A DNA stretch of 64,000 nucleotides, taken from positions 62,946 to 126,945 of the forward strand of contig JAAOMT010000139.1 in the NCBI GenBank assembly GCA_016748015.1, read 5' to 3'. This document shows, in pieces, positions 5,268 through 60,069 of the stretch. The stretch's first letter is position 1. Each line of letters begins with the position of its first letter. A model generated the notes under the pieces. It made no database searches, was not told the DNA's origin, and saw nothing but the letters and a program-made list of their open reading frames with translations. The translations under genes and the position numbers were made by a program. Source of the stretch: Geosiphon pyriformis uo1. Taxonomy: Eukaryota > Fungi > Glomeromycota.

Positions 5268-6653
5268 TTAAGTGTTCAAGTTTGGTTGTTGTTCTATTAT
5301 AATTATTGGTTCTAAATTTCGGGGAATATCTTCAGGATTAATTAAAGAGGAATGTGTACCAATTTGTGGAATTAATGGTTCAAGATTGTTTCTAGAATAA
5401 TAGTGTTTCAATCTGTCTCTATGTACAACTTTTGCTAGTATTTTGTCATCAAGTCTTAACTTGTATGATCCATTGCCTAGAATTTTGTGAATATAAAATA
5501 GTCCATCCTATTTGTTTTCAAATTTCTCACTCTATTGTTTTTCAGCCTTAGTTCTGTATAAGAGAACTTTATTTCCAACTTTAAATTCGTTGGTAATAGG
5601 TGGTAATTTGTTGTCATGTCTTTCTTTTTGTTGAGCTTGGGAATATTCAATATGAGTTGCTGCTATTCTTCTTTTTCCTTCCAGTGTACTAAAAAGAGTG
5701 TAGGCTCTTCTTTGGAGTGTTTCTTGAAAGTTTTCTTTATTGATTGGTTGTACTGAATATGTTTCTACTGTGAAATTAATTGGTAATATTGCTGTTCTTC
5801 TATAAGTAAGATCAAATGGTATGTGTTTCATAGTATCTTGTTTTAGTGTTCTGTATACTAGTAACACTGATAAAATAAAGATATTTCATTCCTGCTCAAA
5901 GTTTGTTAAGACTTTGGCTAGAGATTCACATAATGTTCTATTAAAACGTTTTACAAGTCCATTTGTTTGAGGGTGATAAGATGATGATAGAGGTTTTTTG
6001 ACTTTGAACCGTTCACAAATTTCTTGTATCAAGTTGTTTACAAAATGTGTTTCTTGATCAGATAAAAGTTCAATTGGGCATCTATATCTACAAATAATGT
6101 CTTCATAGATGAAATTTGCTACTGATTTTGCATCTGCTCTTTGGATGGCTTTAGCTTCAGACCATTTGGTAAGATAATTCACTGCAACTACAATATAATG
6201 ATTTCCTTGGGTTATGATAGGTAATAGTCCGACTAAATCAATTCCAACTCTGTCAAAAGGTTGTCCAATTTTGATTGGATTTAAAGGTTCTGTGGGGTAA
6301 GTTCCTCCTCTTCTTTGACAATTATCACAAAATTCTACATATTGTCAAATGTTTTTTTGCATGTGAGGCCAAAAATAATGTTTAAAAGTTCTTTGAATTG
6401 TTCCATCTCTTCCCAAGTGTGCTGAAAAAGGATCTGTATACATGTTGTATAGAATTGTTTCATTTTCATTTTCCTGTACTAATTTGAGTAGTTGGTTTGA
6501 GTTTTTACAATTTCTATAATATATTTTGTTATGGTGTATAAAATATTGTTTGGATTGGTTTTGTACTCAATGTTTTTTACTTGGAGACCAATTTTCTGGC
6601 ATGGTGAGAGTCTCCAAATAGTTTTTGATGTTGTTGTAGTTTTCTGGATTCAT
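5268..6653 (-). pseudogene. Integrase of element A (separate ORF)
   Basis: Starts MNPENY; H2C2 zinc finger; GIDLVG, SDQETHF, TNGLVKRFNR DDE core. Confidence 0.9.
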
Positions 6654-6720
6654 TATTGTTGATCTTGTTGTTTGTTCTGCTGTTAAGTTTGTTGGTGTTT
6701 TGTTGGTGTTGATGTTGGTA

Positions 6721-9700
6721 TTAGTATTGTCTCATTCTTGAGAGGCTATTAACATTGATGTGTAGTTTTCCTGGTTTGTAATGTAGAATGTATCTGTAGT
6801 CTGCTAGGAAGTTATTCCATTGAGACTGTTTGGCACTTTGTTCAGTTTTCTTTTTATTAAGCCATTTGAAACCAATATTGTCAGTTATTATGTCAAATTT
6901 TTTTCCATTCTTCAGGTATTGTTGAAAGTGTTTAAGAGCCCAGATGACTGCAGTGGCTTCCAATTCAGTTGAGCCATATTTGAGTTCTGTTGGCTTAAGT
7001 GTTCTGTTGGCATAGGCAATAACTTGTTCCTGGCCATTTTCATCCAATTATAATAAGATGACACCAAATACTATGTGTGAAGCATCAGTGGTTAATTAAA
7101 ATCGTTTGTTGAAGTCTGAGTAAGCAAGAACTGAGGCTGTTGTCAATTTTGTTTTGAGAGTTTCAAAAGCTTTTTGTTGTTCTTCAGTCCATTTGTATGG
7201 TACGTTTTTGTTGGTAAAATAATTGAGTGGTTTGGCAATTTCTGAGAATTCTTTTATGAATTTTCAATAGTAAAAGGCTAATCCTACAAATTTTCTTAGT
7301 TCTGTAGTATTTCTGGGGGTTTGAAAGTTTTTGACAGCACTGATTGTTCCTGGATTTGGTTTAACTTTATCTTTACTAACTATGTGTCCAAGAAAGATCA
7401 AGCTTGTTTTTCCAAAGTGATATTTCTCAATGTTTAACTTTAATCCTGCTTTCCATAATCATTGAAAAACTTCTTGCAGGTAAATGAAATGAGTCTCAAA
7501 GCTTGGTGAGTATACATCAGTATTATCAAGATAGACAACTACTGATTGCCACAAGAGCCCTTCATATACCACATCCATGAGTTGCTAGAATGTTGCTGGT
7601 GCATTGCAGAGTCCAAAAAGCATAACATTAAACTCATAGTTTCCTTCTTGGATGGTAAATGCTGTTTTGGGTCAGTCTTTTGGATCCATTTCGACTTGCT
7701 AGTATCTACTTTCTAAGTCTAAAGTTGAGAAGAACTTGGCTTTTCCTAGAGCATCTAGCATATCATCAATTCTTGGAAAAGGATAGACATCTCCAATTGT
7801 CACACTGTTCAATTGGCGATAGTCAACACAAAATCTGATTTTTCCATTTTTCTTTTTAATCAGGACTACTGGTAAAGCCTAAAGACTTCTTGATGGTTGA
7901 ATCAATCCGTTATTGAGCATTCTCTGAACTTCTTCTCTGATGAATTGGTGGCTGGCCGGTGGCACTCTGTAAGCTTGCTGTCATTTTGGTAAAGCATCTC
8001 CTGTATGGATCTAATATTGAACCATATCCGTTTTTCCCAGGTCATTGTTGTCTTTTGCAAATATATCTGCAAATTCAGCTATCAATTGTTTCAATTGTCT
8101 TTGTTGTTAAGGTTCTAAGGGACCCATGTTGATTTGAGAGAGTTTTTTTTCTAAAAAGTGGTAGTTTTCAGTAGTGAGAATGATATTTGGATTTGGGAGT
8201 AGTATGTGCCTTACAATTTCGATGAAATTAGAGACAATTTGAGGGTTTTCATCTTGAAAAATATTGCTGTATATGATTTCAATCTCTAGTTTGTTTAATA
8301 AGATAATAGGGTAATTATTGGGGTTGTAGAATATAACTCAAAATTTTTTCATTCCTTTGGGAATATAAACGTTTGAAATTGAGATTTCATGCTTCAAACA
8401 GATTTGTTCATTGGATTCAAAGATTTGTTGTGTAGTGGTGGGTTTTAAGCAAGTATAAATTTCATGATGTTCTTCAAAAGGTAAAATGGTAATTGGCTGG
8501 AGAAATTGAAGAATCTGGTGAGATTCATTTTGTGTATTTAGAGCTATGTTTACTGGAACTGTAAATCGTCTAGTTGAACCAAAATCTTGAGTTCCTCTTT
8601 CACTTTTTTCCAATTGTTCTCTGTTGTTTACTGATTGTAAATCCGAAATGTTGATTAAGAGTAAGTAAATTGCTTGAGCAATTTTTTTAGCATGTTCAAT
8701 CTTGAATGATTTGTCTGTTTCATTCTGTAACATGATAGTAATATCTCTGGTGTATCCTGTATTTATAACTCCTCCTCTAATATTGATTTCTTTGCTTACC
8801 AATGATGATCTGGAGGCAATTTGAACCATTGCTCCTGGTAGAATTTCAAGAGCAATTTTGAGATTGATTTTTGTCAAGGACTTTGGTTGGAGAACCAAAG
8901 TATCTTTTCCTGGGTATCTTAGGTCATATTCAGCATCAATTTCGTGTGCTTTTTCTGATTTCTTGGCCATAGTTGTCAAAATATTTAAGTTGTAGAGGTG
9001 GTTGTTTTTCAAAAAGATAGATAAGAGTGGTTGGTAGTTTTTCTACTAGTTCAGATACTTCAAATTCGATTTCATTTTTATCATTCTCATTTGGCAGAGA
9101 AATGTTAAGAGCATAACATTCTAAATACTATTGGTCATCACAAGACATAACACATTTTTCACACAATTAAATGTTCATTTGCTTTAATCATTGAATTTGA
9201 GCTTCTTTGGTCAGATATGTGTGGCTTGCAATTTGGTGGTAGGTTTTTACTTCATCTTCATAATCAAATCCAGCTAATTCCATGGTATACTCAATATATT
9301 CAGCTTCTTTTATTTGGTGGACATCTTCTTGGGTGGCTCTATTGATCAATGTCATTGCTAAGTCAAAAATCATTTCAGCATCATAAGGGTAGTGGTAAAG
9401 TTTATTGAGAGCACTGTTGTATACTGCATCAAATGGTGTTCCTCTTCTGACTTTTTCCAAAATTGATAGAACATATTGACAGGTTTGATCACATACTTCT
9501 CCTCTTATTGCTATATCAATCCAATTGCATTCTTTTGGTAGCATTTCTCCACATGTAAGGCAAGGTGTATTGTTTCATTTTCCACTTCTTTTTGAAGATC
9601 CAAATCATTCTCTATGACATGTTTTGCAAAAGTAACAGGTACAAGTTTTATATTCCTCTTCTGGAGAAATACATGCTCCCATTGATGAAAGTTTTTTGTT

Positions 9701-17900: not shown

Positions 17901-20734
17901 GTTCCCAGCAGAGAAAGAACATATGATGAAGCATGTCAATACACTATCTTGATCAATAATTGGATACAAAAAAGAACTCCAATTGATAATGCCTGAAAAT
18001 AAGTGTTATGATAATTGGACAGGTATCTCTGTAATGAATATAAGATTTAGAGAATGGTGAGTGCAAAAGCAGAGGGCACTACAACCAAGAAATTACTGAA
18101 AATTAAAAACAACCCTTTATCCCTTTTAGAACCTGAATATATTATGACTTTTGACATCTTTGGCAATATTAAGAACAATTCAAAATACTTTTACAAGCAC
18201 TATCAGAATCTGGCACTAACTAGAGAAGAGCAGAAACAAAGACTAGCTGACTTAAACATGAAACTGTGTGATTATTGTTTGATCTCTTACCACTTTTAGT
18301 ACTGCAACAAATGCAATATCATGTTCAATCTGTCTCCAAAAAAACTATATTTGATCACTGAACTACCAAAACCTAAGGTAAAAGAGAAATTAATTACCAA
18401 GAACATGTTATTTTAAGATCCAACTGAGGATACTGAAACAAAATAATATTTTGCATATTCCAATCTATTCAAAGAATTAGAATTAAAATGATACAGTGAC
18501 AATGAGAAAAAAATCTGCTCTAAAAAAGTGCATAACACTAATGCTGGTTTTAACTTATGATACCTTGGACAATCATCCATAATTATAGCCTTACATTCCT
18601 TTGTAAAAATAGATCTTAAAATAGTATTAGAAATTCTTATTAGTACAATGATACAAGTTGTCTTTCGATCTAGTCTAACCAAAAAAGAAATCAATGTAAA
18701 GAGAAGAATTATTGATGCTGGTTACACAGGAAACATTATAGTAATACTACAGAACAATTCAAACAAACCCTATAAAATAGAATCACAAGAAAAAATTACT
18801 CAAGCTATCTTTCTACTCCTAATCAAAATACCCCAATTAATCTCAGTAACAACCCAAAGAGAATTAGGCTTTACCACTTGAGAAATTCAAAAATTTGGAT
18901 CAAGTAAAAGAGGAAACATACTAATTAACTTCATGAAAGAAAATAGTAACCAGGTAAAACTTATCTACACTAACACAGTCATTTCTATTCCCTCTTATCA
19001 ACAATATATCTTTAAGATAAATTAAAAGATGCAAAATCAAGTTCTGGTATTTGAAGCTGATACTAAAATCTGTTTTCTAACCAATATTGCTAACTTATAC
19101 CTACTGGCCAAAGCTCATAAATACTTCAAAATCCTCATTCACAACCTCACAGAAGATGTAATTGAAATCCCTGAAGGGACTCTTATTGGTTCTATTTCAT
19201 TGAACATTTAACATTCTGAAAAACCTTAGCATATCCCAGATTTTGCGCAATTATTCTTATTTTGTGACATCACTTCACAAATATGGAATCAGCCAAAAGA
19301 AAGTTACTTGTTCACATTAGAAGAGATCAATAAATTAAATTTCAGGAACTTAAGTACTCTACAGCAAATGCAACTCAAGATTCTTTTGAATCAATATGCC
19401 AATGTCTTTGTCAGTGAAAATGAGTTTGGATGCACTGACATTGTAAAGCATCAGATTGATACAGAAAACACTTGACCTATTAAACAATAAGCTTACTGAG
19501 TACCTTTATCTGACAACAATCTTATCAAACAAGAAGTCCAACAAATGCTCAACAATAGCTTAATTAAGGAATTATTAAGTCTTTGGTTCTCTTCAGTAGT
19601 TCTGGTTACCAAGAAAAATGGAAAAGTATGATTCTGTGTGGATTACTGAAAATTAAATAGCATCACTCAAGAAAATAGTTATCCCATTCTCCTCATCCAA
19701 GAAATCCTGAACAATTTAGGAAAAAAAAAATAGTTCTTATTATTAGATCTAGCTAGCAAATATTGGCAGGTTAAAATGAATCCCAAAAATAAAGAAAAAA
19801 TGGCATTTACCACTTAAGACAAAAACTTCGAGTTTAATGTAATACCCTTTAAATTCTGCAATGTTTCTGCCATGTTTTAACATCTTATGGATGTCATGTA
19901 CAAAGGAATTCTTTGGAAATCAGTTATAGTTTACTTAGATGACACAAATATGTTCTTTAAAACATTTGATGATCATTTACTGTACCTTCAACAAGTTTTC
20001 AAATGCCTTCAAAATGTCAGATTAAAACTCAATTCCAAGAAATGTTTCTTTGAGAAAACCAAGTTGAAATTCCTAGAACATGTAATCAGCAAAGACAAAG
20101 TCAAACCCAATCCAGACAAGATCCAAAAAGTTAAAGATTTTCTGGCCCCAATCAACTTTCGAGAGTTATGAAAATTTTTAGAATTGGCAAAATACTATTG
20201 TCAATTCATTAAAGAGTTTTCAATGATCACAAAACCTTTTCACTACTTGTTGTTTAAATACATGCCATATCTATAAAAAAAAAACCAATAGAAAACATTC
20301 GACTATTTTAAGCAATGATTAATTACATCTCCAATCCTAATTTACCCAGATTTTACTAAATGGTTTATTATCACTACAGATATCTCAAAAAATGCTCTAG
20401 GAGCAGTCTTATCACAGATAGAACCAGACAATAAAGAACATCCAATTGTCTATGTCAATCACAGCACTAGTCCAGCAGAAAAAAATTACAGCACAACAGA
20501 TCTGGAATGTTTTGCCATTTATTGGGTCATAGAGACATGAAAACATTACTTCAGCTTGTTTTTTGACCTATATACTGATCATAAAAGACTTGTTTAATTA
20601 CTCAACAATCCACAACTAAAAAAAAATATGCAAGATGGAGTACTTATTTGCAACAATTCCCATTCAAAGTTCATTACAAAGAAGGATATAAAAACACCAA
20701 TGCCAACAGTTTGTCGAGAATACTACAAACCTAA
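14941..20734 (+). pseudogene. Gag-PR-Cys-rich-dUTPase-RT-RNaseH polyprotein of element B
   Basis: GTG start; CYYCQKPGHIVQNC knuckle ~16480; LILDS(G)SA protease ~17155; dUTPase FRSSL/IIDAGYTG; YLDD ~19932; ends NSLSRILQT*. Confidence 0.88.
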
Positions 20735-21819
20735 TTCCAGACCTATAGATATATTCACTTATCAATAAATACATTAGTACTTATTGACACTATCTTTCAA
20801 GGAGATATTATCTCAACAGAAACAAAGTACCATATAAAAACAAGCCTAAAATTATTTTATTCAAGACAACCAACTATATTAATAAGAACACCAAAACTGT
20901 TCTACTCCATAATAAGTTATAAAAAACAATGAAAAAGAAACTATATTACATAGTATGCATTCTGATCCAACTACAAAACACTTTAATAAAGATGCTACTT
21001 TCAAAAGAACACTAAATTTATACTATTGGCTAACAATATACAAAGACATTTTTGAATATGTGCTTAATTGTGACTTATATTAGCAAAGAAAAGAAGCAAG
21101 ACCAACAGAACCACTTCAATCTATTTCAGTTGGAAATTCATTTAATAGAATTGGGATTGATTTGGTTGGATCTCTCTTAATTACATCTCAAGGAAATCAC
21201 TATATTACTGTAGTCATAAACTATTTTACAAAATAGCCAGAAACCAGAGCAATCAAAGTGACCAATGCCAAAACAGTAGCTGAATTTGTGCATTAAAACC
21301 TAATTTGCTGACATAGATGCCTAAAAGAATTATTATCTGATCAAAAAACACATTTTGTTAATAATACACTAACTAAACTAAGCCAAAGATTTGCAATAAA
21401 GTAATCTTTATTATTACCATACCACTCACAAACAAACAGATTGGTAGAACAATTTAACCAAATACTGTGCAAAGCATTAGCAAAAATAAGTTATGAAAAC
21501 AAACAAGAATAGAACTTATTCATATCTTCTGTACTCTTTGTATACTGAATATTGAAACAAAATACAACTTAGTTCACATCATTTGAACTAGTCTATAAAA
21601 GAAAAGCTACATTACCAATTGAACAAGTAATATTATCATATTCAACAGAAATAATTAATGAAGAGAATTTTGAAGCTATAGTGAACTCTTTTTATAATCA
21701 CATCTTTTAGTCAGCATATTTGTGGTGACTATAGAAAGATGAGACTATAAAAAATGATTAATATCTTATCACATGATCTATATATTACATGCATAATATA
21801 ATAACTAATTATATATATT

Positions 21820-33700: not shown

Positions 33701-36370
33701 TACCCCCATGATGCTGAAATGATCTATGAACTTGCCATGGTTTTAATTAACAGAGGAACCAAAGAAGATGTCCTTCAAATAAAAAAAGCTGAATATATTA
33801 AATATACATTGGAATTAGCTGGATTCAATTATGAAGATGAAGTAAAAGTATACCACCAAATCACAAGTTACACCTACTCAATCCAAGAAGCTCAAATTCA
33901 ATGATTAGAGCAAATAAACATTAAATTATATAAGGAATGTATAATGCCATGCAATAAACAATAGTGTCCTGAATGCTATGCTCTTAGCATTCCATTGCTC
34001 AGCAAAAGCGATAAATACGAAATTGAATTCGGAGAACCTGAAGCAACAGAAAAAATTGAAACAACACCTATTTACCTCATTGAAAATCAGCCTGCTTTAC
34101 AACTCAAATACTTCAACAACAATGGACAAGGAATAAAACCGGAAAAAACACATGAAATTGATGCTGGATACAATCTACGATATCTAGAAAAAAACACTTT
34201 GGTTTTTCAACCAAATTCTCTTATCAAAATCAACTTCAAAATTGCCTTCGAAATTCCACCAGAAGCAATGATCCAAATCGCTTCACGATCATCATTGGCA
34301 AGCAAAGGAATCAATGTTAAAGGAGGAATTATAGATGCTGGATATACAGGAGACATTACAATCATGTTACAAAATGAAACCGATAAACTTTTTCAGATTG
34401 AACATGCTGAAAAAATTGCTCAAGCTATTTATTTACCCTTAATCAACATTTCAGGTTTACAATTAGTCAGTCAAAGAGAACAATTGGGAAAAAGTGGAAG
34501 AGGAACCAATGGTTTTGGTTCAACTGGACAATTCACAGTTCCAGTAAACATAGCTCTTAATGAACAAAGTAAATCTCACCAGATTCTACAACTTCCACAA
34601 CCAATTACTATTTCACCTTTTGGAGAACACCCTGAAATTTACACTTGTGAAAAGCCAACAACCACACAACAAATTTTTGAGTCCAATGAACGAATCTGCT
34701 TGGAACATAATATCTCAATCCCAAATATTTACATTCTAGAAGGAACAAAGAAAGTCCAAGTTACTTTTTACAACCCCAATAATTACCCCATAGTTTTATT
34801 AAATAACTTAAAAATTAGAGTTATTCACAGTAATATCTTTCAACAAAAATTACCCCAAACAGTCCCCAATTTCTCTGAAATTATTGGACATTCATTACCA
34901 AAAATCAACCCAAACCCCAGCTTTGAAAACTACCATGTTGTTATGGAAAAACTATCTTGAATCAACATAAAACAACTTGAACCACAACAACAGAGCCAGC
35001 TCAAAGAGCTAATTGTAGAATTTGCCAATATCTTTGCTGAAAACAACAATGACTTAGCAAGAACTGATTTGGTTCAACACCAAATCTATACAGGAGATGC
35101 CAAACCAAGGTGACAGCAAGCCTACCAAGTTGCTCTAGAAAGTCACCAATTTATCCGTGAAGAAGTACAATGGATGCTCAACAATAGGCTTATTCAACCA
35201 TCAATAAGTCTATAGGTCTCACCTATGGTCTTAGTTAAAAAGAAAAATAGAAAGATATGATTTTGTGTTGATTATTGACAACTCAACAGTATCACCATTG
35301 GAGATGCCTATCCCCTTCCCTGAATTGATAATATGTTGGATGTCCTTAGAAAATCCAAATACTTTTTAACATTAGATTTAGAGAATAGATATTGGCAAGT
35401 TGCTATGGATCCCGAAGATTGTCCCAAAACAGCATTCACCACTCAAGGAGAAAATTATGAGTTCAACGTAATGCCTTTCAGATTATACAATACACCAGCA
35501 ACATTCCAAAGACTCATGGATGTTGTTTACAAAGGTCTTCTTTGGAAATCAGTAGTTGTCTATCTCGATGATACTGATGTTTATTCACCATTTTTTGAGT
35601 TACACTTAAAACACTTGCAAGAAGTTTTTCAACGATTACAGAAAGCAGGATTGAAACTGAACATCAAAAAATGCTACTTCGGAAAAACAAGTTTGGCCTT
35701 TCTTAATTACATTGTTAGCAAAGATGGAATTAAACCAGATCCTGGAAAAATCAGCACTGTTAAAAACTTCAAGACCCCATGAAATACCACAAAATTAAGA
35801 GAATTTATTGGATTAACATCCTATTACCAAAAATTCATCAAAGGATTCTCAGAAATCGCAAAACCCCTCAACCAGCTCACTACTAAAAATGTCGAATATA
35901 AATGAACGGAAGAACACCAAAAAGCTTTTGAAATTCTCAAGGAAAAGCTGACAACAGCTCCAATTCTTGCCTATCCAGACTTCAGTAACCAATTTCAACT
36001 AGCTACAGACACTTTTTACACTGCCTTTGGTGCCATCTTATCACAATTAGATGACAACAGAAATGAGCAAATAATTGCTTATGCTAGCAGAACATTAAAA
36101 CCAGCTGAGAAAAACTACCCTGCCACAGAACTAGAAACAGCAGCCATAATTTGGGCCCTATATCACTTCAACCTTTATCTCAGGCCTAAAAAATTTGACA
36201 TTATCACTGATAATATTGGACTCAAATAGCTTCAAAACAAAAACACTCAGCTGAATGCCAAACAAACCTGATAGACAGGATTTTTAGCTAACTACTAATA
36301 CATTGTACATCACAAACCAAGAAAACTTCATACCAATGTTGATTGTCTCTCAAGAATGAGACAAGATTAG
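30783..36370 (+). pseudogene. Gag-PR-Cys-rich-dUTPase-RT-RNaseH polyprotein of element C
   Basis: ORF fragments from 31640 to 35333 are all in one frame; YLDD at 35561; ends RMRQD*. Confidence 0.92.
34105..34530 (+). CDS. dut: dUTPase domain within Pol (best-preserved copy)
   Basis: Five motifs in order: AGY(N)L, SRSSL, GIIDAGYTG, KIAQAI, RGTNGFGSTG. Confidence 0.93.
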
Positions 36371-36416
36371 AACATAAAACCAACACCCATTTGAATTAAC
36401 AACAAGACAACAAACA

Positions 36417-37802
36417 ATGAACCCCGAAAACTACAACAATCTTAAACAATATTTGGAGACATTAACAATTCCAACAGATTGGTCTGCAGATAAAAAACAC
36501 CAATTACAATAACAAGCCAAACAATACCTCTTACACAACAACATGATTTATTATTGAAACTTCAGAAACCCAGACAATTCACTCAGATTAATACAAGAAC
36601 ATAAAAAAGAAACTATTTTATATAACATACATTCAGATCCTTCATCAGCACACTTAGGAAAAAACAGCACCACCCAGAGAACACTAGAATATTACTTTTG
36701 GCCTTGAATGAGAAAAAACATTCATGAATACATTAAGTCTTGTGATAGTTGTCAAAGAAGAGAAAGAATTCACCCTACAGAACCTTTAAACCCAATTAAA
36801 GTTGGACAGCCTTTTGACTGAATTGGTATCAATTTAGTCGGACCACTACCTATTACAAACCAAGGAAACTGTTATATTGTAGTAGCTGTAGACTATCTCA
36901 CCAAATGGCCTGAAGCCAGAGCCATTCAACAAGCAAATACAAAATCAGTAGCAAATTTCATCTATGAAAACATCATTTGTAGACATAGATGCCCAATAGA
37001 ACTTTTATCTAATCAAAGAACACATTTTGTGAACAATTTAATCCAAGAAATTTATGAACAATTTAATGTCAAGAGACCATTATCTTTGCCCTACTATCCA
37101 CAAACAAATAGACTTGTAGAATATTTCAACAGAATATTGTGTGAATTATTAGCCAAAGTTTTAACCAATTTTGAGCAAGAATGGGATCTCTTTATTCCGT
37201 TAGTGTTACTAGCATATAGAACACTAAAACATGACACCACAAAAAACACACTATTTGACTTAACCTATGGAAGAACAGCAATGTTACCAATTAATTTTAC
37301 TGTGGAACCATACCCAGTATAGCCAATTAATAAAGAAAACTTTTAGGAAACACTTCGACGAAGAGCCTACAATCTTCTTAGCATATTGAAAGGAAAATGA
37401 CAAATAGCAGCCACCCATATTGAACACTCCCAAGCTTAACAAAAAGAATGGCATGACAACAAATTGCCACCAGTCACCAATAAATTTAAAATTGGAAACA
37501 AAATTCTCTTACACAGAACTAAAGCTGAAAAACAATGGAGTGGGAAATTTGAAAATAAATGAGATGGACCATTTTTTATCCATGAAGTTCTAGACAATAG
37601 ATCATATAAGCTAAGACTTGATGACAAAATCCTAGCAAAAGTTGCACATGGAGATCATTTAAAACACTATAATTCCAGAAACAATCCTAAACCATTAATT
37701 CCACAAATTAGTACACATTCCCTTTTAATTAATCCTGAAGATATTTCCCGAAATTTAGAACCAATAGTTGTCATTGAACAACCTTCCAACTTGAACACTT
37801 AA
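36417..37802 (+). pseudogene. Integrase of element C (separate ORF)
   Basis: Starts MNPENY; HSDPSSAH..CDSC; DDE core; GPF-like C-terminus. Confidence 0.9.
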
Positions 37803-38701: not shown

Positions 38702-38721
38702 NNNNNNNNNNNNNNNNNNNN
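38702..38721. other. Assembly gap (20 N) with a 234-bp contig overlap (38468-38701 = 38722-38955)
   Basis: N run flanked by identical sequence. Confidence 0.95.
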
Positions 38722-38865: not shown

Positions 38866-39848
38866 TATTACCAGACAAAATTAGAGATATTGTTTAGCAT
38901 AAAATTACCCTTATAAATCTTATCATTAATTAGCATATATTATCATTTCAAATTATTACTTATTACATTAACAAAATGTCCAAAATTATCATTTAATTAA
39001 TAATCTAATTTGTACATAACACAAATGTAACCTAAGTGTGATAATTAATCATGCAATATCCCGAAATATGTAACATTCAAAAGTTCACCAAAATTTGTAG
39101 AAATTTGCTGAAATAATTGATAGTTTACTGAAATATCTAATAGTTTGCAGAAATAACTTGTAGTTTGCTAAAATATATCTTTAGTTCAGCGAAATTATAG
39201 AAAAGAGCAAAGTTCAAGTTCATGGAATAGTGTTACAACAAGTTGTATAAAAAAAAGCTTCTCTCTTCAAAAAAATATATCTTACTTTAGATTTATTACT
39301 TAGAACCATTTCTACACACACAAAAAGAAATAAATATTAAATAATTCGAAAAACCAAATTCTTTAATTATTGTACTTGGAAAATTCCCAAAACCCAACTA
39401 ACATTTTGAAATTGATTAGCTACCAATTTCAGTAAAACTGTTAGTGACTCCAGGCCTGAATAGAAAACATTTCCTTTAACAGAATTCTATTTCTTTTATA
39501 TTTTTTTTATTTTTTTTCTTTTATTTTCTTATTATAATCAATAGAGTAGCCTACAGACGAGATTCCTGTAGAAGAGTTGACTTTTACACCAAAGTAACTA
39601 CACATTTTTAGTGAACTTTCAGATAAACAATTCCTGGGAAAGAGTTGATGTTTACTACAACATAACTACATAAAGCAACTGGCACGGAATTGGCCATTCC
39701 ACTTATAAGTCCAGCAGTTCAAATTATAGGAGATAATTTGAAGATAAAATTCAGTTATTGGAGGTTCAAACACTTCCCATAGTCATGAATTAACAGCATT
39801 ACAACAAACATACAAGAGCTAAAAAGAGACCAAAAACATCTGGTAACA
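38866..39848 (+). repeat. 3' LTR of element C
   Basis: Repeat of 29767-30736. Confidence 0.92.
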
Positions 39849-50192: not shown

Positions 50193-51148
50193 TGTTACCA
50201 GACAAAATTAGAGATATTATTTAGCATGAAATTATCTTATAATTCTTATCATTAATTAGCATATATTATTGTTTCAAATTATCACTTATTACATTAGCAA
50301 AAATGTCCGAAATTATCATTTAATTAATAACCTAATTGCAATGATTAATCATGCAATACCCCGAACTATATAACATTCAAAAGTTCACCGAAATTTGTAG
50401 AAATTTGCCAAAATAATTGATAGTCACCGAAATATCTAATAGTTTGCAGAAATAACTTGTAGTTCGCCGAAATATATCTTTAGTTCAGCGAAATTGTAGA
50501 AAATAGCAAAGTTCAAGTTCATAGAATAGTGTTATGACAAGTTGTATAAAAGAAGAGCTTCTCTCTTCCAGAAAATGTATCTTACTTTAGATTTATCACT
50601 TAGAACTACTCCTACACACACAAAAAAAAATAAATATAAAATAATTCGAAAAACCAAAAACTTTTTAATTATTGCACTTGGAAAATTTTCAAAACTCAAC
50701 TAACGTTTTGAAATTGATTAGCTACCAATTTCAATAAACTGTTAGTGACTTCAGGCCTGAATTGAAAACGTCTCTCTTAACAGAATTCTATTTCTTTTAC
50801 ATTTTTTTTATTTTCTTTTTATTTTCTTACTATAATTATTAAGGTAGCCTACAGATAAGATTCCTGTAGAAGAGTTGACTTTCACAGCAAAGTAACTACA
50901 CATTTTTTTTAGTGAGCTTCCAAATGAGCATTTCCTGAGAAAGAGTTGACATTTACTACAATGTAACTACATAAAGCAACTGGCATGGAATTGGCTATTC
51001 TACTTATAAGCCCAGCAGTTCAAATTATAGAAGATAATTTGAAGATAAATTCAGTTACTGGAGGTTCAACCACATTCAGAAAACATGAATTCACAGCAAA
51101 CAAGCATCGACAATATTTAAGAAAAGAGACCAAAAACCTCCAGTAACA
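50193..51148 (+). repeat. 5' LTR of element E
   Basis: TGTTA..TAACA; repeat of 59086-60069. Confidence 0.95.
50383..50550 (+). promoter_or_regulatory. U3 array of ~6 GTTCGCCGAAAT-like motifs followed by TATAAA (50545)
   Basis: Motif array and TATA box present in all family-1 LTRs. Confidence 0.6.
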
Positions 51149-51193
51149 TTTGGTGTTCTCCCACAGTAACAACACAGCAAAAACAACTTCAAA

Positions 51194-54100
51194 GTGGTGA
51201 CCACACCAGACGCAACAACTCTAGAGTATTACCAGTCAATTTACACTTACTGCAAGTAAAGATTCAACATTTCAGACAGAATTGAAGTTGTCAAGAAATC
51301 AGTATACCAATATATTGAAAACCGCATCAACAATTATCTTTTTGGAAATTACAATATCTCAGAAGTTAGAAGCAACCTTTACAATAATTTAGCACACTAT
51401 TCACAATTGGGAACTGAAGACCTTAACAGTAAAACACTTGCCACTTACTTTTACGAACTTAATTTTAACATTATCAAATACTGTGAAGAAATATATCCAG
51501 TGCAGTTTCAATACATTATTGATTTTGAATCAGAAACAGAAACAAGCAACAAAGGCAAAAACAAATTGAAGCAATACTTAAGAACCACCCCAAATACTCC
51601 AACACTACTGAAAACAACTGCCAAATATTTACAAACACCTGAACAAGGAACCAGTTCAAAATTTCCACTTACTAACACACTTTTTCCAGCTTTACTTGCA
51701 CAAGCACAAACACCTAATTCACCCTTGAATTGATTTGCAAGACCAGAAGATTTTATATCACTCAGAAGTCTCACCAAACAACAAGAACCCCTGCAAATTA
51801 ATTCCAATCTTCTTGATTTTCTAGCTGAAAATCAAAGTGAACACTCTGAGACAGCAGCAAACAAAGAAAACGACTCTGAAATAACTAAAAAAGAATCAAT
51901 AAACAGTGAAAACAAAGAAGACAAAATGACAACATACATTGCAAAAATTCCTGAATTCAATGGAGAAGATATTGAGACCAGTTCCCAAGAATGGCTTGAC
52001 CAAGTTACTAAAGCTGGAAATGCAAATGGATGGAATGCTGCCAGAATGTTAAGAACAATTCTCTACTTTCTCAAAAGAACAGCAGGAGAATGGTTTGAAA
52101 ACTTGGCTGCCCCATTCAATGATTGGAACACTTTCAAAGCAGTCTTTCTTGAACAGTTCACCGACAATAATACCTCTATCACCCTTCGCAATCATTTTCG
52201 AAATATCAAACAAGAACCCTCTGAATCTGTTATAACTTATATTAGGAAATTCAACAAACTTCTCAGATGAATTCGTCAACTCGAAACAAATAATTATTAT
52301 TTCGATGCTCAAATCTTGGATCAATTTATTGCTGGTTTAAAAGATAAACTAATTAAAAAGGTTTGCCTACATGTGCCAGAAGATTTAAACTCTGCCATAC
52401 AGCATGCAAAAAGATATGAAATGGCCATGGAAGAGGCCAATCGCACAAAACTTGTAAATTTGACAATTAGAGAAACCAGCTTAGCAGCTGAGAAAAAAAT
52501 TGACCAATTCACAAAGAAAGTTGAAAACTATTTCACCAATTAACAACAACAGCAACCTCAAAGATATCAACCACCCCAAAGATGAAATCAAAATAATTTT
52601 GCACCACTTTCCAATAACCAGTCTCAGAATTGCCATTACTGTGAAATCTCTGGCCACTGGAAAAGAGATTGCAGAAAGCTACAATGAGACCAACAAAATA
52701 GGAGTAATCAATGTTATCCTTCACCACAGCAATCTTATTATCAACCACCACCACCAGCTTACTATCTACCAAGACTCCAATACCAAAATAACTATTATCA
52801 GCCTGCCCCACAGCCAATCTAACAGCAATACCAACAACTACTTACACAACATTATCAAGTACCTGCTTGAAAACTGATTACACAAAATCAATTCACACCA
52901 CAAAACTGATACCAAGTAAACAACAATAGAATCAGTTCAAACAACCAATTGGTTCCCCAAAATTCCACTCAACCAAGATCCAACCACTACTACATTCAAC
53001 CCAGTTATTTAACAATGCCAGAAGAACAAGATTTTTACCATACTGCACCCTTGGAAGGTAAAGCTGCAGCACAATAACAAAACTCTTCCTATACTCTTAC
53101 TACAATCCCACCAGCCAGAATTGCTAAAAACGCTAACCTTTTAGATATATTCCCTTTTGAGTTCAAAGCAAATGAGTCACCATTCCTGCTTAGCAATGCA
53201 GCCGCCAATGAACAAAAAGCAATCATGGCTATGTATACTAAAGCAGAAGTCGAAAGAAAGACAATTTGCTTGATCCTAAACAGTGGATCCGCCAGAAGCA
53301 TTATCACAAACCAGTTAATACAACAGTTGAAGAAAAATGTTGACCGACCAGCTCAAACAGTAATTGTCACTGCCAATAGCATGAAAAAGACCCCAGTAGG
53401 AGAAATTGACAATTTTCCATTTACTCTTAATGGAATCACCATTCCAGTCAAAGTTTTTGTAATGGATGCATCCCAGTACTAAGCTCTCATCAGAAATGAT
53501 TGGCTTCAAAAAGCCAATGCTAATTTGAATTGGGAAACACAAAAGTTAACAATCTCCTACCAAGGACAATATGCCTGGGTACCTGCCACTTGTGGTACAT
53601 TCAACAAATGCTCTGAAAAAGCCCCAGCTTTTGAATTTAAACTGGAAGAGGAAAAACCCCTCATTGAAACATTCATGGCTTTTGGATCAATGTCTAACTG
53701 GGCCAATGAAACAGAACAAAAACATTTTACCCCACACTCTGAACCCGAAACCTCTGGATGGAATATCTCTTACTCAAAACCCGAACCAAGGAAACAACAC
53801 CCCTATATTCCCCTTAAATGTAAGGACTATCACAAGAAACTATCATCAATGGGAGCCTGTATTTCACCTGAAGAAAAATATGAAAATCATACTTGTTATT
53901 ACTGCAAGGCTTGCCACAGAGAACGATGGGACCATCTAATAAAAAAGAACAGAAAATAGGACAATACTCCTTGTTTGACTTGTGGAGATATGCTACCAGA
54001 AAAATGCAATTGGATTGATGTAGCCATGAGAGGAGGAGTCTGTGATCAGACCTGCCAATATGCTTTATCAATTTCAGAAAAAGTAAAAAGAGGAACACCC

Positions 54101-56812
54101 TTTAATGTGGCATACAACAGTGCTCTTAACAAACTTTATTACTACCCCCATGATGCTGAGATGATTTTTGACCTAGTAATAGCATTAATTAATGGAGCTA
54201 CCAAAGAAGATGTTTATCAAATAAAGGAAGCAGAATACATTGAATACATCATGGAATTAGCTGGATTCAATTACAAAGATGAAGTAGAAGTCTACCACCA
54301 AATTGCAAGTTACACCTACCCAACTCAAGAAGCTCAAATTTAATGATTAGAGCAAATGAACATTAAACTATGTAAAGAATGCATTATGCCTTGCGATAAA
54401 CAGTAGTGTCCTGAATGCTACGCTCTTAGTATCCTCTTGCCCAGCAAAAATGATGAGAACAAAATTGAATTTGGAGAATCTAAAGCAATGGAAGAAATTG
54501 AAACAACACCTATCTACCTTATCAAAAATCAGTCTGCCTTACAACTTAAATACTTTAACAACAATGGACAAGAAATAAAACCCAAAAAAGCACACGAAAT
54601 TGATGCTAGATATGACCTAAGATATCCAGACAAGGTTACTTTTGTTCTCAAACCCAAATCTCTTACAAAAATCAACCTCAAAATTGCACTTGAAATCCCA
54701 CCAGAAGCAATGGTTCAAATCATCTCCTGGTTCTCTCTGGCAAGCAAAGGAATTAATATCAGAAGAGGAATAATTGATGCTGGATATACTGGAGACATTA
54801 CAGTAATGCTTTAAAATAAAACTAACAAACCATTCAAGATTGAACATGCTGAAAAAATTGCCCAAGCTATTTACTTACTCTTAATCAACATTTTGGGTTT
54901 GCAAGTAGTTAATCAAAGAGAACAATTAGGAAAAAGTGATAGAGAAATCCAAGGTTTTGGTTCAACTGGATGATTCACAGTTCCAGTTAATATAACTCTT
55001 AACACACAGAACAAATCCCACCAGATTTTCAGACTTTCACAACTAATTACCATCTCACCTTTTGGAAAACATCCGGAAATCTATACCTGTCCAAAGCCAA
55101 CAACCAAACAACAAATTTTTGAGTCTAATGAACAAGTCTGCTTGGAACATAATATTTTGATCCCAAATATTTATATTCCAGAAGGAACAAAGAAAGTCCA
55201 AGTTACTTTTTACAACTCCAATAATTACCCCATAATTTTATTAAATAATTTAGAAATTGGAGTTATTCACAGTAATATATTTCAACAAGAATTACCACAA
55301 ACAGTCCCTGATTTCTCTGAAATTATTAGACATTTACTACCAAAAATCAACCCAAACCCCAGCTCCGAAAACTACCATGTTGTCATGGAAAAACTATCTT
55401 GAATCAACATGGAACAACTTGAACCACAACAACAGACCCAGCTCAAAGAGCTAATTGTAGAATTTGCCGATATCTTCACTGAAAACAACAATGACTTAAG
55501 AAGAACCAATTTGGTCCAACACCAAATTTATACAGGAAATGCCAAACCAAGAAGACAACAAGCATATCGAGTTGCTCCAGAAAGCCACCAATTCATCCGA
55601 GAAGAAGTACAACAAATGCTTAACAATAGGCTCATTCAACCCTCTATGAGTCCTTGGGCTTCACCTGTAGTGCTAGTTAAAAAGAAAAATGGAAAGATCC
55701 GATTTTGTGTTGACTATCAACAATTCAACAGTATTACAATTAGAGATGCCTATCCCCTTCCTCAGATTAATGACATGTTAGATGCTCTTGGAAAATCCAA
55801 ATACTTTTCAACACTAGATTTAGAAAGCGGTTACTGGCAAGTTGCTATGGATCCCAAAGATTACCCCAAAACAGCATTCACTACCCAAGGCAGAAATTAT
55901 GAGTTCAATGTAATGCCTTTCGGATTATGCAATGCACCAGCAATGTTTCAGAGATTAATGGATGTTGTGTACCAAAAACTTCTTTAAAAGTCAGTAGTCG
56001 TTTATCTTGACAATACTGATGTTTATTTTCCATCATTCGAATTATACTTAAAACACCTGTGAGAAGTTTTTCAACGATTATGAAAAGCAGAACTAAAACT
56101 CAATATCGAAAAATGCTACTTTGGAAAAACAAGCCTGGCCTTCCTTGGTTATATCATTAGTAAAGATGGAATCAAACCAGACCCTGAAAAAATTAGTGTT
56201 GTCAAAAACTTCAAAACTTCTTAAAACACTACAGAACTAAGAGGATTCATAGAATTAGCATCCTACTATCAAAAGTTTATTAAAGAATTTTCGGAAATTG
56301 CAAAACCCTTCAACCAGCTCACCACCAAAAACGTTGAATACAAATGGACTACCGAACACCAAAAAGCTTTTGAAATTCTCAAGGAAAAACTAACAACAGC
56401 TCCAATTCTTACCTATCTGGATTTCAGCAACTAATTTCAACTAACTACAGATGCTTTGTATACTGCCTTTGGTGCCATCTTATCACAACTAGATGACAAT
56501 GGAAATGAGCGAGTAATTGCTTATGCTAGCAGAACATTAAAACCAGTTGAGAAAAACTATTCTGCCACAGAACTAGAAACAGCAGCCATAATTTGGGCCC
56601 TATACCATTTCAACTTTTATCTTAGGCCTAAAGAATTCGATATTATCACTGATAATATTGGACTCAAATGGCTTCAGAACAAAAATACTCAGCTGAATAC
56701 AAAACAAACCTGATGGACAGGATTTCTAGCAAACTATCGATACATAGTACATCACAAACCAGGAAAACTCCACACCAATGTTGACTGTTTCTCCAGAATG
56801 AGACAAGATTAG
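51194..56812 (+). pseudogene. Gag-PR-Cys-rich-dUTPase-RT-RNaseH polyprotein of element E (single frame, ~1870 codons, point-mutation stops only)
   Basis: ORFs 51407, 51926, 52316, 53225, 53525, 53975, 54437, 55142, 55409 and 56456 all share one frame. Confidence 0.93.
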
Positions 56813-56864
56813 AAAAACACAAAAACCAACACTCAACTTAACCAACCAAAAGAGCCAACAACCA

Positions 56865-58276
56865 ATGAATTTGGAAAACTACAACGATCTCAAACAATAT
56901 TTGGAAACATTAACAATCCCAACAGATTGGTCTCCAAATGAAAAACATCGACTACAACAACAAGCCAAACAATATTTTCTACACAACAACATTATTTATT
57001 ATCGAAATTTCAAAAACCCAGACAAACCACTCAGATTAATACAAGAACAAGAAAAAGAGACTATATTATACAACATGCACTCAGATCCTTCATCAGCCCA
57101 CTTCGGAAAAGACAGCACCACTCAAAGAACACTAGAATACTACTTTTGGCCTCGAATGAAAAAAGACATTCACGAATATGTCGAATCTTGTGATAGTTGT
57201 CAAAGAAGAGGAGGAACTCGCCCTACAGAATCTTTAAACCCAATCAAAGTTGGACAGCCTTTTAACAGAGTTGGTATCAATTTAGTCAGACCACTACCTA
57301 TCACAAACCAAGGAAACCATTATATTGCAGTAGTTGTAGACTATCTCACCAAATGGCCTAAAGCCAGAGCCATTCAATGGGCAGATGCAAAATCAGTAGC
57401 AAACTTTATCTATGAAGACATTATTTGTAGACATAGATGCCCAATAGAACTTTTATCTGATTAAGGAACACATTTTGTGAACAATTTAATCCAGAAAATT
57501 TGTGAACGATTTAATATCAAGAGACTATTATCTTCACCCTATCATCCACAAACAAATGGACTTATAGAATGGTTTAACAGAATATTGTGTAAATCATTAG
57601 CCAAAGTTTCAACTGATTTTGAGCAAGAATGGGATCTCTTTATTCCATCAGTGTTACTAGCATATAGGACACTAAAACAAGATACCACAAAACACACACT
57701 ATTTGATTTAACTTATGGAAGGATGGCAATGTTACCAATTAGTTTCACAGTGGAAACATACCCAGCACAATCAATCGATAAAAACAATTTTCAAGAAATG
57801 CTTCAGCAAAAAGCCTACACTCTGCTTAGCACATTAGAAGGAAAACAATGAATAGCAGCCACCCATATTGAACACTCCCAAGCTCAACAAAAAGAATGGC
57901 ATGATGACAAATTGCCTCCAGTTACCAATGAATTTAAAATTGGAAACAAAGTTCTCTTACACAGAACTAAAGCTGAAAAACAATGGAGTAGAAAATTTGA
58001 AAATAAATGAGATGGACCATTCTTTATTCATGAAGTTTTAGGCAATGGATCATACAAGCTAAGACTTGATGACAAAATTTTAGTAAAAGTTGCACATGGA
58101 GATCGTTTGAAACACTATAATTCCAGAAACAATCCTGAACCATTAATTCCACAAATTGGTACACATTTCCCTTTAATCAATCCCAAAGACATTCCCCTTT
58201 AATCAATTCCAAAGACATTCCCCAAAATTTAGAACCAATAGTTGTCATTGAACAGCCTCCCAACTTGAATACTTAA
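56865..58276 (+). pseudogene. Integrase of element E (separate ORF, +1 frame)
   Basis: ORFs 56865-57464 and 57477-57851; H2C2 zinc finger and DDE motifs. Confidence 0.92.
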
Positions 58277-58397
58277 TTTAAATTTATTATTATAGTTATC
58301 TTCTTATAATTTAGAAACAATCTTACAAAAACAAAACAAAAATAACATAAAAACTCATATATCAAAAATAATTTTCTTTTATTTCAAATTGCTTATA

Positions 58398-59117
58398 ATG
58401 ACTATTCCTTAAAACATTCAACAATTATCCCAAAAACTAATGTTAGCTTTAAAAACAATACCTGAATTATCCATTACTGTTACTGAAAACCACATTAATT
58501 ATATCCAAACAGAAGTAGTTACAAATTTAGCCCCAAATTTATGAAAATATCACCCGTATAAGAAGAACACAAGAAGCTATACTGGAATTCACTTGCCAGA
58601 ACTTTTAAAGCTTGCTTTAAGAGAAAACCTAATGCTCACTCCAATTAGTATTCCACCAAATACTACAATTCAACAAAGACTTCAACTGTGTCTCAATGAG
58701 GAAAACACTGAATATCCTCCAATCTATAGATATTTTCACATTGGAAAAACACTCTACGAATGGAAACTGGAACTTACAACAGCAAACTTCACAAAAAAAG
58801 CTATTCAGAAACAACTCCACAACGAATTCAAGACAACAGCTGGATCAACAAACAGTCGCTACAGGCTCAGAGCTGCTTTTAGACTTTATAATCTATTCCA
58901 CACCTGTAAAAACATACTACAAAACCCAATTTTTCAATCTTTAAAGATTCAATACATTGGAAAGCTCACAAAACTGAAATTTCAACAATTTTCAGACCAA
59001 ATTTCTTTAATAATTTTGGATTATTATCTGGAAATAACAAACAGTACTTGGACTTTGATGGAGCTCGATCTTGAGGAGGAGGTTATGTTACCAGATAAAA
59101 TTAGAGATATTATTTAG
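58398..59117 (+). pseudogene. Accessory ORF3 of element E (239 aa; two transition-type stops)
   Basis: ATG at 58398 is in frame with ORF 58593-59117; runs through the PPT into the 3' LTR. Confidence 0.82.
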
Positions 59118-60069
59118 CATAAAATTATTTTATAATTCCTATCATTAATTAGCATATATTATCGTTTCAAATTATCACTTATTACATTAGCAAAAATGTC
59201 CGAAATTATCATTTAATTAATAATCCAAATTGTACATAACACAAATGTAACCTAATTGCAATGATCAATCATGCAATACCCTGAACTATGTAACATTCAA
59301 AAGTTTGCCGAAATTTGTAGAAATTCACTGAAATAATTGATAGTTCACTGAAATATCTAATAGTTTGCAGAAATAACTTGTAGTTCACCAAAATGTATCT
59401 TTAGTTCAGCGAAATTATAGAAAATAGCAAAGTTCAAATTCATAGAATAGTGTTATAACAAGTTGTATAAAAGAAGAGCTTTTTTCTTTGAGAAAATGTA
59501 TCTTACTTTAGATTTATCACTTAGAACCACTCCTACACACACAAAAAAAAATAAATATAAAATAATTCGAAAAACCAAAAACTTTTTAATTATTACACTT
59601 AGAAAATTCTCAAAACTCAACTAACGTTTTGAAATTGATTAGCTACCAATTTCAATAAACTGTTAATGACTTCAGGCCTGGATTGAAAATGTCTCCCTTG
59701 ACAGAATTCTATTTCTTTTACATTTTTTTTATTTTTTTTTTATTTTCTTACTATAATCATTAGGGTAGCCTACAGACAAAATTCCTGTAGAAGAGTTGAC
59801 TTTCACAGCAAAGTAACTACACATTTTTTTTAGTGAGCTTCCAGACAAGTATTTTCTGGGAAAGAGTTGACGTTTACTACAATGTAACTACATAAAGCAA
59901 CTGATACAGAATTGGTTATTCCACTTATAAGCCCAGCAGTTCAAATTATAGGAGATAATTTGAAGATAAATTCAGTTATTGGAGGTTCAACCACATTCAG
60001 AAAACGTGAATTCACAGCAAACAAGTATCAACAACATTTAAAAAAAGAGACCAAAAACCTCCAGTAACA
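59086..60069 (+). repeat. 3' LTR of element E
   Basis: Repeat of 50193-51148. Confidence 0.95.

What the first reader, a model, noticed from the sequence alone, without database searches (positions are those of the whole stretch)
56790..56870. Integrase is uncoupled from Pol and always resumes in the +1 frame
Seen: Pol stops right after RNase H in all four full-length elements, and integrase begins at its own start codon. The spacers are 67 nt (A, 6654-6720), 46 nt (C, 36371-36416), 52 nt (E, 56813-56864) and 10 nt (B, 20735-20744; start decayed to ATA). All four are 1 mod 3. The +1 frame is open across the Pol stop in A, E and B, and has a single TAA (plausibly from CAA) in C. Inference: either programmed +1 frameshifting at the stop codon or separate translation of integrase (reinitiation or a spliced/subgenomic mRNA). 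The sample is small and there is no shared slippery motif.
Basis: partly seen in the sequence, partly recalled or inferred. Interest (0 to 1): 0.85.

Follow-up and report, generated by a model that had tools for sequence, protein, structure and literature searches.

The report
Retrotransposon integrase as its own gene
In this large family of probably fungal jumping genes the integrase is not the tail of the polymerase protein but a separate gene with its own conserved start codon, likely made by ribosomes that stop after the polymerase and restart a few dozen bases later, not by a frameshift.

Summary
The split is real; the +1 rule is not. All four junctions are as described (67/46/52/10 nt, all 1 mod 3), but A, C and E are one family and B is in the same subclade. 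In 38 related metagenome junctions none is fused, spacers run -14 to +727 nt and phases are 11/15/12 (p=0.71). 20 of 27 non-overlapping spacers have a stop in the integrase frame. The nearest relative is phase 0, and other copies of E's family carry -1/-4 spacer variants. The integrase Met is conserved, in good initiation context, and spacers are AUG-poor. 11 of 38 junctions are stop-start overlaps (UAAUG, AUGA, AUG-n2/5/8-stop), the pattern of viral termination-reinitiation. A third ORF and inserted cargo ORFs abut in the same way. One subclade has a covarying stem-loop, unmatched in Rfam, just before the AUG. Verdict: a Ty3/gypsy lineage of probable Glomeromycota hosts with integrase as a separate cistron. 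Reinitiation is inferred (0.55), with no RNA or protein data. Ten paper searches found no description; this scan found the split before on other DNA (e1-7415176, e1-7415508).

The parts
50193..51148 (+). Element E 5' LTR (TG...CA), followed by a TGG-starting PBS-like sequence
   Evidence: 93.8% identical to the 3' LTR, 58 of 59 differences are transitions
51260..56812 (+). Element E gag-pol frame: Gag, aspartic protease, unknown Cys-rich region, dUTPase, RT, RNase H; ends TAG 4 codons after the RNase H 'SR' motif. True start not determined
   Evidence: (PF03732, PF13650, PF00692, PF00078, PF17917)
56813..56864 (+). Element E Pol-IN spacer: 52 nt, 47 A/C, no AUG, no predicted structure
56865..58276 (+). 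Element E integrase as a separate ORF from its own ATG: N-terminal helix, HHCC zinc finger, DDE core, GPF motif. Decayed copy with internal stops and a local duplication near the end
   Evidence: (PF17921)
58277..58397 (+). Element E IN-ORF3 spacer: 121 nt, no AUG, U-rich with a pyrimidine tract ending in TAG (possible splice acceptor, untested)
58398..59117 (+). Element E ORF3, about 240 codons, own ATG conserved in A, C and E; member of a lineage-wide family with no Pfam match
   Evidence: 31% identical to L001 ORF3, E 7e-20
59086..60069 (+). Element E 3' LTR, preceded by a purine-rich tract (GAGGAGGAGG)
36368..36419 (+). Element C junction: Pol TAG, 46-nt A/C-rich spacer, IN ATG (IN 36417-37802; ORF3 ATG 37924; element 29767-39848)
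6651..6723 (-). Element A junction: Pol TAA, 67-nt A/C-rich spacer, IN ATG (IN 6653-5268; ORF3 ATG 5132; element 13288-3476)
20732..20747 (+). Element B junction: Pol TAA, 10-nt spacer, ATA at the position of the conserved Met (start inferred; element about 13838-26036, heavily decayed)

Best explanation
These are Ty3/gypsy LTR retrotransposons in which Pol ends right after RNase H and the integrase is a separate reading frame with its own conserved start codon, likely translated from the same RNA by ribosomes that terminate at the Pol stop and reinitiate nearby. Shown: the split, the conserved Met, the random spacer phase, the overlaps in relatives and a third ORF with its own start. Inferred: (1) the post-termination 40S stays on the RNA and either restarts at once on an overlapping AUG (many relatives) or crosses a short AUG-free, unstructured A/C-rich spacer (this family, as proposed for LINE-1); (2) the new start stands where fused relatives have a linker that the protease would cut, so initiation would replace proteolytic release and set IN at a fraction of Pol; (3) free IN would enter the particle by binding Gag, RT or the RNA.
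For: Separate gene: Met1 is invariant in 50 aligned homologs. 103 of the top 120 homologs have Met in that column and 101 begin there (length-limited search). In a search with no length limit, 22 of the 24 hits among 150 that match from profile position 1 start at residue 1. 0 of 39 loci with RNase H upstream are fused. Real initiation: purine at -3 in 60 of 70 starts versus 212 of 338 internal Met codons (Fisher p=1.4e-4); residue 2 is always D, E or N. Scanning ribosome: 12 ATGs in 24 spacers up to 165 nt versus 19.1+/-2.9 in dinucleotide shuffles (p=0.011), and none in the four window spacers. Coupling: 29 of 38 spacers are at most 100 nt; 11 of 38 overlap at -1 (x2), -4, -8 (x3), -11 (x3), -14 (x2). 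These match the UAAUG / AUGA / AUG-nX-stop (X=2,5,8) forms listed for termination-reinitiation in PMC5972666, and they fall in several separate branches. Inserted ORFs between Pol and IN overlap the IN start (L033 -4, L060 -1, L027 -8), and IN overlaps ORF3 in 3 clear cases of 13 (-1, -4, -8). No YAG or branch-point excess before the AUG. Fused gypsy relatives carry the same N-terminal helix about 25-55 aa after RNase H.
Against: No RNA, ribosome or protein data: all mechanism evidence is sequence pattern. The window's own spacers (46-67 nt in A, C, E) exceed the roughly 20-30 nt limit reported for TURBS-type reinitiation (PMC10275272). That review also reports norovirus TURBS reinitiation as independent of Kozak context, whereas these starts have one. 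UGGGA lies within 90 nt upstream of the stop in only 1 of 38. No general RNA structure next to the AUG outside one subclade. L034 and L031 have 365 and 727 nt spacers with 7 and 12 ATGs and no abutting ORF, which simple reinitiation cannot explain. ATG depletion over all 27 spacers is weak (39 vs 48, p=0.08, mononucleotide shuffle). Kozak context and AUG depletion fit a capped subgenomic RNA equally well, and tight spacing could be genome economy. One fused protein, P0126, nests inside the clade, and P0150 is fused with a Met at the homologous site.
Confidence: 0.55

Rival explanations
1. Integrase is a separate gene but is made from a subgenomic RNA (internal promoter, or splicing from a donor near the 5' LTR), as foamy virus Pol (recalled) and the env RNAs of some gypsy elements are.
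For: Kozak context and AUG-poor spacers fit a 5'-proximal AUG. It would cover long spacers with many ATGs (L031, L034). Spliced subgenomic RNAs occur in LTR elements (PMC3735527 passages). The window's IN-ORF3 spacer has a pyrimidine tract ending in TAG in A, C and E.
Against: No excess of YAG or branch point + YAG within 40, 60 or 100 nt of the AUG (2 vs 5.6, 10 vs 11.2, 21 vs 19.6). The window's Pol-IN spacers have 3-6 U. Exact stop-start overlaps recurring at Pol-IN, cargo-IN and IN-ORF3 junctions are not needed under this model.
Confidence: 0.25
2. Internal ribosome entry at the integrase AUG, through the A-rich unstructured spacer here or through the conserved stem-loop in one subclade.
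For: 16 of 80 loci carry a stem-loop ending 0 to about 31 nt before the AUG. 10 of 13 pairs change on both sides, 0 of 500 shuffles reach that, and a held-out copy scores E 2.5e-11 (L081). Its 11-nt bulge is conserved in sequence.
Against: It is absent from the window and from L082, whose Pol ends in nearly the same peptide as L040's. It is small and weak (-7 kcal/mol, z -0.4), so it could equally aid reinitiation or bind a protein.
Confidence: 0.12
3. Programmed +1 frameshifting at the Pol stop gives an RNase H-integrase fusion.
For: 4 of 4 window spacers are 1 mod 3 and the A/C/E length differences are multiples of 3. 8 of the 11 overlapping relatives are also in the +1 frame.
Against: Phases are 11/15/12 in 38 relatives. 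20 of 27 non-overlapping spacers have a stop in the IN frame, and 9 of 38 are compatible. The nearest relative L001 is phase 0. In E's family a 1-nt deletion at 56813 is in 19,590 of 46,191 depth, and two contigs spanning stop and ATG are 4 and 2 nt shorter. The invariant Met with initiation context would be unnecessary. The shift window is under 3 codons.
Confidence: 0.04
4. The stop and frame offset are decay inherited from one dead ancestor.
For: All four copies are dead, with many transition-made stops.
Against: 28 relatives with a stop-free integrase show the same split; median pairwise integrase identity among the 38 is 49%. The HHCC and DDE residues are invariant in 120 of 120 stand-alone homologs.
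Confidence: 0.01

Closest known systems
Ty3/gypsy LTR retrotransposons (Metaviridae)
   Same: LTRs with TG...CA, PBS- and PPT-like signals, order Gag-PR-RT-RH-IN, HHCC/DDE/GPF integrase.
   Different: Described members carry IN as the last domain of Pol (PMC3248453, PMC12440569 passages). Here IN is a separate ORF, with a dUTPase in Pol and a further unknown ORF3.
Coupled termination-reinitiation: calicivirus VP1/VP2, influenza B M1/BM2, fungal victoriviruses and hypovirus CHV1, non-LTR retrotransposon SART1
   Same: UAAUG, AUGA and AUG-n2/5/8-stop overlaps in 11 of 38 relatives.
   Different: No UGGGA motif (1 of 38). 27 of 38 junctions, including all four in the window, have a true spacer. 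Coupling is not shown by experiment.
LINE-1 ORF1-ORF2 translation across a 63-nt spacer (Alisch 2006, seen only as cited in PMC5972666)
   Same: A long upstream ORF, a spacer of tens of bases, and a downstream enzyme ORF on a retroelement RNA; window spacers are 46-67 nt.
   Different: LINE-1 is a non-LTR element and the junction is ORF1/ORF2; here it splits Pol between RNase H and integrase and keeps a strict AUG.
Tat elements with an additional RNase H in a separate ORF (PMC10508981 passages); foamy virus Pol and Ginger1 transposases (recalled; Ginger1 named in PMC12440569)
   Same: An enzyme domain expressed outside the main polyprotein; a gypsy-type integrase with a free N-terminus.
   Different: In Tat the separate domain is an extra RNase H. 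Foamy Pol keeps IN fused. Ginger1 is a DNA transposon with no RT or LTR.

Membership tests
Ty3/gypsy (Metaviridae) | Direct LTRs with TG...CA ends, PBS and PPT | tested here: met
   (A, C, E); priming tRNA not identified
Ty3/gypsy (Metaviridae) | Domain order Gag-PR-RT-RH-IN | tested here: met
Ty3/gypsy (Metaviridae) | Integrase with HHCC, DDE and GPF/Y motifs | tested here: met
   H72 H79 C109 C112 D139 D199 E235 G384 in 120 of 120 homologs, P385 in 119; the window copies are substituted at some of these
Ty3/gypsy (Metaviridae) | Integrase fused in the Pol polyprotein (typical layout, not the basis of the RT-defined family) | tested here: not met
   0 of 39 junctions fused; rare fused relatives P0126, P0150
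Ty3/gypsy (Metaviridae) | Placement by RT phylogeny among named clades | not tested
   Only an integrase tree with unnamed fused outgroups was built
Ty3/gypsy (Metaviridae) | 4-6 bp target-site duplication | tested here: inconclusive
   near-matches of 4 nt for A (CCAC/CCAT) and E (TTGC/TCAC), none clear for C
Programmed +1 frameshift (Ty1/Ty3 type) | Fixed +1 phase with the downstream frame open from the shift site | tested here: not met
   phases 11/15/12; 9 of 38 compatible
Programmed +1 frameshift (Ty1/Ty3 type) | Conserved shift motif | tested here: not met
   stop context varies; shared k-mers upstream are RNase H codons or A-runs
TURBS-type termination-reinitiation | Stop and start within about 30 nt or overlapping | tested here: inconclusive
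   17 of 38 relatives at -14 to +30, and B (10 nt); A, C, E at 46-67 nt
TURBS-type termination-reinitiation | UGGGA motif upstream of the stop | tested here: not met
   1 of 38; fungal victorivirus and CHV1 cases also lack it
TURBS-type termination-reinitiation | Downstream expression depends on upstream translation and stop position | not testable with these tools
   needs a reporter assay
Spliced subgenomic mRNA | 3' splice site just upstream of the integrase AUG | tested here: inconclusive
   no enrichment; no RNA run to test directly

The most novel reading that the evidence does not exclude
A widespread fungal LTR-retrotransposon lineage runs as a eukaryotic operon: Gag-Pol, optional cargo ORFs (one with a restriction-endonuclease domain), integrase and an all-helical ORF3 protein with no structural match are translated in relay from one RNA by stop-start coupling, and one subclade uses an undescribed RNA stem-loop to place the ribosome on the integrase AUG.
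Probability: 0.4. Interest if true: 0.82.

Novelty: new variant of a known kind. Interest (0 to 1): 0.62.

Why it matters
LTR retroelements normally package integrase by making it part of Pol and cutting it out inside the particle. A successful, high-copy lineage that makes integrase as a free protein must set its amount and package it another way. It offers dozens of natural junction variants (overlap, short spacer, stem-loop) for testing how eukaryotic ribosomes reinitiate after long ORFs. It also matters for annotation: close 'fused' models in Rhizophagus and Cetraspora lack the residues around the junction, as if an intron had been called across it, and intact elements could be scored as broken.

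Tried and rejected
No whole genome is held for the window, so spacer phase over all genomic copies could not be tabulated; assembly contigs of run X1 gave only partial counts. No RNA holder listed. Viral contigs: no integrase relatives and no stem-loop pattern; genome contigs: no pattern match, and its 12 integrase loci are weak hits or short contigs that look like host carry-over. Rfam: no match to the stem-loop loci at E up to 5-10. Twister, twister-sister and hammerhead resemblances were recalled leads with no support from these searches. Recalled idea that lokiretroviruses, Odin or Troyka have a separate integrase: the passages read show IN inside Pol. SART1-like structure downstream of the AUG: z -1.2 to -2.0 in the window copies but mean z +0.39 over 54 relatives. 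'Fused' close hits P0123-P0125 lack the end of RNase H and/or the start of IN, and P0131 has a 135-aa linker; read as spliced gene models, DNA not seen. ORF3: no Pfam match above cut-off; model pLDDT 92.5, all-helical; no Foldseek match in PDB or BFVD and best VIA Z 4.4, which does not show a new fold. The protein atlas gave no result. No tRNA genes in the window. Ten paper searches found no description of a separate-integrase LTR lineage; subscription papers, Repbase and GyDB were not searchable and no supplements were read, so a record there is possible.
Full report
Context. The window is AT-rich eukaryotic DNA holding three copies of one LTR element family, A (13288-3476, minus), C (29767-39848) and E (50193-60069), 75-83% identical, and a more decayed element B (about 13838-26036). 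LTR pairs are 96.7, 92.9, 93.8 and 86.1% identical, almost all by transitions. Domains in E are Gag, aspartic protease, dUTPase, RT and RNase H in one frame, then integrase in another frame, then ORF3. Named close homologs come from Rhizophagus irregularis, R. clarus and Cetraspora pellucida, so the host is probably a Glomeromycota fungus. That is inferred; most relatives are unnamed metagenome contigs. The family is abundant in the one DNA run that holds it (6,125 contigs laid on 1.1 kb).

Observation. The split is not random decay: E's gag-pol has 25 point stops but no frameshift in 1871 codons, and the only E-versus-C indels in 3.6 kb are in the spacer. The four copies are not independent, since B groups with A, C, E and L001 at SH 99. 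In A, C and E the +1 frame is closed by a TGA 8 nt before the Pol stop.

Integrase is a separate gene across the lineage. The top 120 of 735 hits of similar length are 359-453 aa stand-alone proteins (this search excludes fusions). 103 of 120 have Met in the column of E's Met, and HHCC and DDE are invariant in all 120. A search without length limits agrees: of its best 150 hits, 24 match from profile position 1, of which 22 start at residue 1, one at residue 23 and one is fused. 39 of 80 have RNase H ending upstream of integrase; the other 41 are too short or have long tails or other ORFs there and were not counted for phase. None of the 39 is fused; one (L069, decayed) has no assignable ATG, leaving 38. 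For 11 of the 38 the profile did not start at position 1 and I took the in-frame ATG nearest the expected start. The search for longer proteins (best 120 of 1560) returned mostly ordinary gypsy Pol at 24-44% identity. Five hits were closer (46-52%), all eukaryotic gene models: three lack junction residues, one has a long linker and one has no RNase H. Two real-looking fusions exist: P0126, nested in the clade, and P0150. On a FastTree integrase tree of 106 rows, 70 of 75 separate forms plus P0126 form one branch (SH 88, not starred); single origin is neither shown nor excluded.

The +1 frameshift fails. Phases among 38 are 0:11, 1:15, 2:12 (p=0.71); 8/10/10 among 28 with stop-free integrase and 8/11/10 among 29 clusters at 70% identity. 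20 of 27 non-overlapping spacers hold a stop in the integrase frame and only 9 of 38 allow a +1 shift. Three phase-0 spacers without a stop (L001, L013, L029) would allow readthrough, which therefore is not general either. Within E's family a 1-nt deletion at 56813 is in 19,590 of 46,191 depth, a 3-nt deletion at 56816 in 3,321 of 55,521, no insertion is listed at 1%, and two contigs reaching from the stop to the ATG are 2 and 4 nt shorter than E (short contigs, old copies, so supporting only).

Evidence on how it is translated. Among 70 starts (80 loci less 7 without an ATG and 3 dropped as truncated or misassigned), 60 have a purine at -3 versus 212 of 338 internal Met codons (p=1.4e-4), and residue 2 is D (34), E (21) or N (15). 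These would be NatB-type termini (recalled). Spacers up to 165 nt have 12 ATGs versus 19.1+/-2.9 expected (p=0.011; TGA and GTG are not depleted). No splice-acceptor excess was found. 29 of 38 spacers are at most 100 nt and 11 overlap: -1 twice, -4, -8 three times, -11 three times, -14 twice. A review lists these forms, UAAUG, AUGA and AUG-nX-stop with X of 2, 5, 8 or 14, for coupled termination-reinitiation, with fungal-virus, SART1 and LINE-1 (63-nt spacer) examples (PMC5972666, passages). Where extra ORFs lie between Pol and IN, three overlap the IN start (L033 -4, L060 -1, L027 -8); L067 and L076 end 2 and 25 nt before it; L061, L075 and L078 overlap by 32-65 nt; L034 and L042 end about 100 nt before. 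IN to ORF3 distances in 13 loci are -38 to +129, with -1, -4 and -8 among them. The window's spacers are A/C-rich, AUG-free and unstructured, as is L001's. Against: no UGGGA motif (1 of 38); TURBS reinitiation falls off beyond about 30 nt and in norovirus ignores Kozak context (PMC10275272, passages); L031 and L034 have long, ATG-rich spacers.

A structured variant. 16 of 80 loci, nearly all in one branch whose members with RNase H have a 233-313 aa Pol tail, carry a stem-loop just before the AUG: a 5-bp helix, an 11-nt bulge of conserved sequence, a 6-bp helix, a bulged A and a 2-bp triloop cap. On 15 sequences 92% of cells pair, 10 of 13 pairs change on both sides, 0 of 500 shuffles reach this and slid controls give at most 4. 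A held-out copy in L081 scores E 2.5e-11. It has no Rfam match and is absent from the window. Its role is unknown; its position suggests control of integrase translation.

Mechanism. Shown: separate ORF, conserved start, random phase, recurrent overlaps, ORF3. Inferred: reinitiation after Pol termination (0.55), versus subgenomic RNA (0.25), internal entry (0.12), +1 frameshift (0.04), decay (0.01). Fused relatives have the same N-terminal helix 25-55 aa after RNase H, so a start codon appears to have replaced the protease-cut linker; how free integrase is packaged is open.

Comparison and novelty. By LTRs, domain order and integrase motifs this is a Ty3/gypsy element; its place among named clades was not tested. 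Papers seen describe IN as part of Pol (PMC3248453, PMC7947760, PMC9040795: passages; PMC12440569: parts 1-2 of 5). PMC10508981 (passages) reports a separate extra RNase H in Tat elements; PMC3735527 (passages) spliced LTR RNAs; PMC13465315 and bioRxiv 10.1101/2021.03.30.436303 (passages) gave nothing on this layout. Ten searches found no description; Repbase, GyDB, subscription papers and supplements were not seen. After my junction analysis I found two earlier notes of this scan on another genome with the same reading; they are not independent evidence. Verdict: new variant of a known kind; the split is secure, the route of expression is not; interest 0.62.

Noticed in passing
L040:4463-4503 and 15 other loci; L081:141-207: Covarying stem-loop with a conserved 11-nt bulge immediately before the integrase AUG; no Rfam match; absent from the window.
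   Followed up: partly
L072:1-83, L077:320-425, L080:1-50: A second conserved motif before the integrase AUG (GGTGAAAGTCC ... AGTGG-RCCAGAGG-CCATT ... GCGTAA) sharing words with the first; no Rfam match for L077; too few copies for covariation.
   Followed up: partly
window 58398-59117 (E), 37924 onward (C), 5132 onward (A, minus): ORF3 in the env position with its own ATG; lineage-wide family of 143-266 aa, confidently predicted all-helical, no Pfam or structure match. Its upstream spacer has a pyrimidine tract ending in TAG, unlike the integrase spacer.
   Followed up: partly
L033:521-1237: A 238-aa cargo ORF with an Mrr-type restriction-endonuclease domain (PF13156, E 5e-9) just upstream of integrase, with ATGA overlaps at both ends.
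   Followed up: no
window 54407-54970 (E); also A, B, C: dUTPase domain inside Pol between protease and RT, preceded by a Cys-rich region of about 300 aa with no Pfam match.
   Followed up: no
L025:2420-3274, L037:4354-5166, L040:3500-4441, L049:593-1294, L031:4945-6705: Pol carries a 233-586 aa tail after RNase H with a Cys/His-rich motif and no Pfam match in the three tails scanned; four of these five loci have the stem-loop.
   Followed up: partly
window 38468-38955: Exact 234-nt duplication flanking a 20-N gap (38702-38721) in element C, probably an assembly overlap.
   Followed up: no
window about 21700-23750: About 2 kb of unrelated sequence with degenerate 108-nt and 198-nt repeats interrupts element B's integrase.
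   Followed up: no
window 13838-14879, 24994-26036, 44649-46695: B's LTR and downstream region have a 68% identical partial relative at 44649-46695.
   Followed up: no
window 1-2000: Very low GC (8%) with a degenerate inverted repeat (23-437 vs 1097-1506).
   Followed up: no
L081, L082, L083: Short contigs with this integrase lie in bacterial genome records, one of an endosymbiont of an arbuscular mycorrhizal fungus; probably host carry-over.
   Followed up: partly
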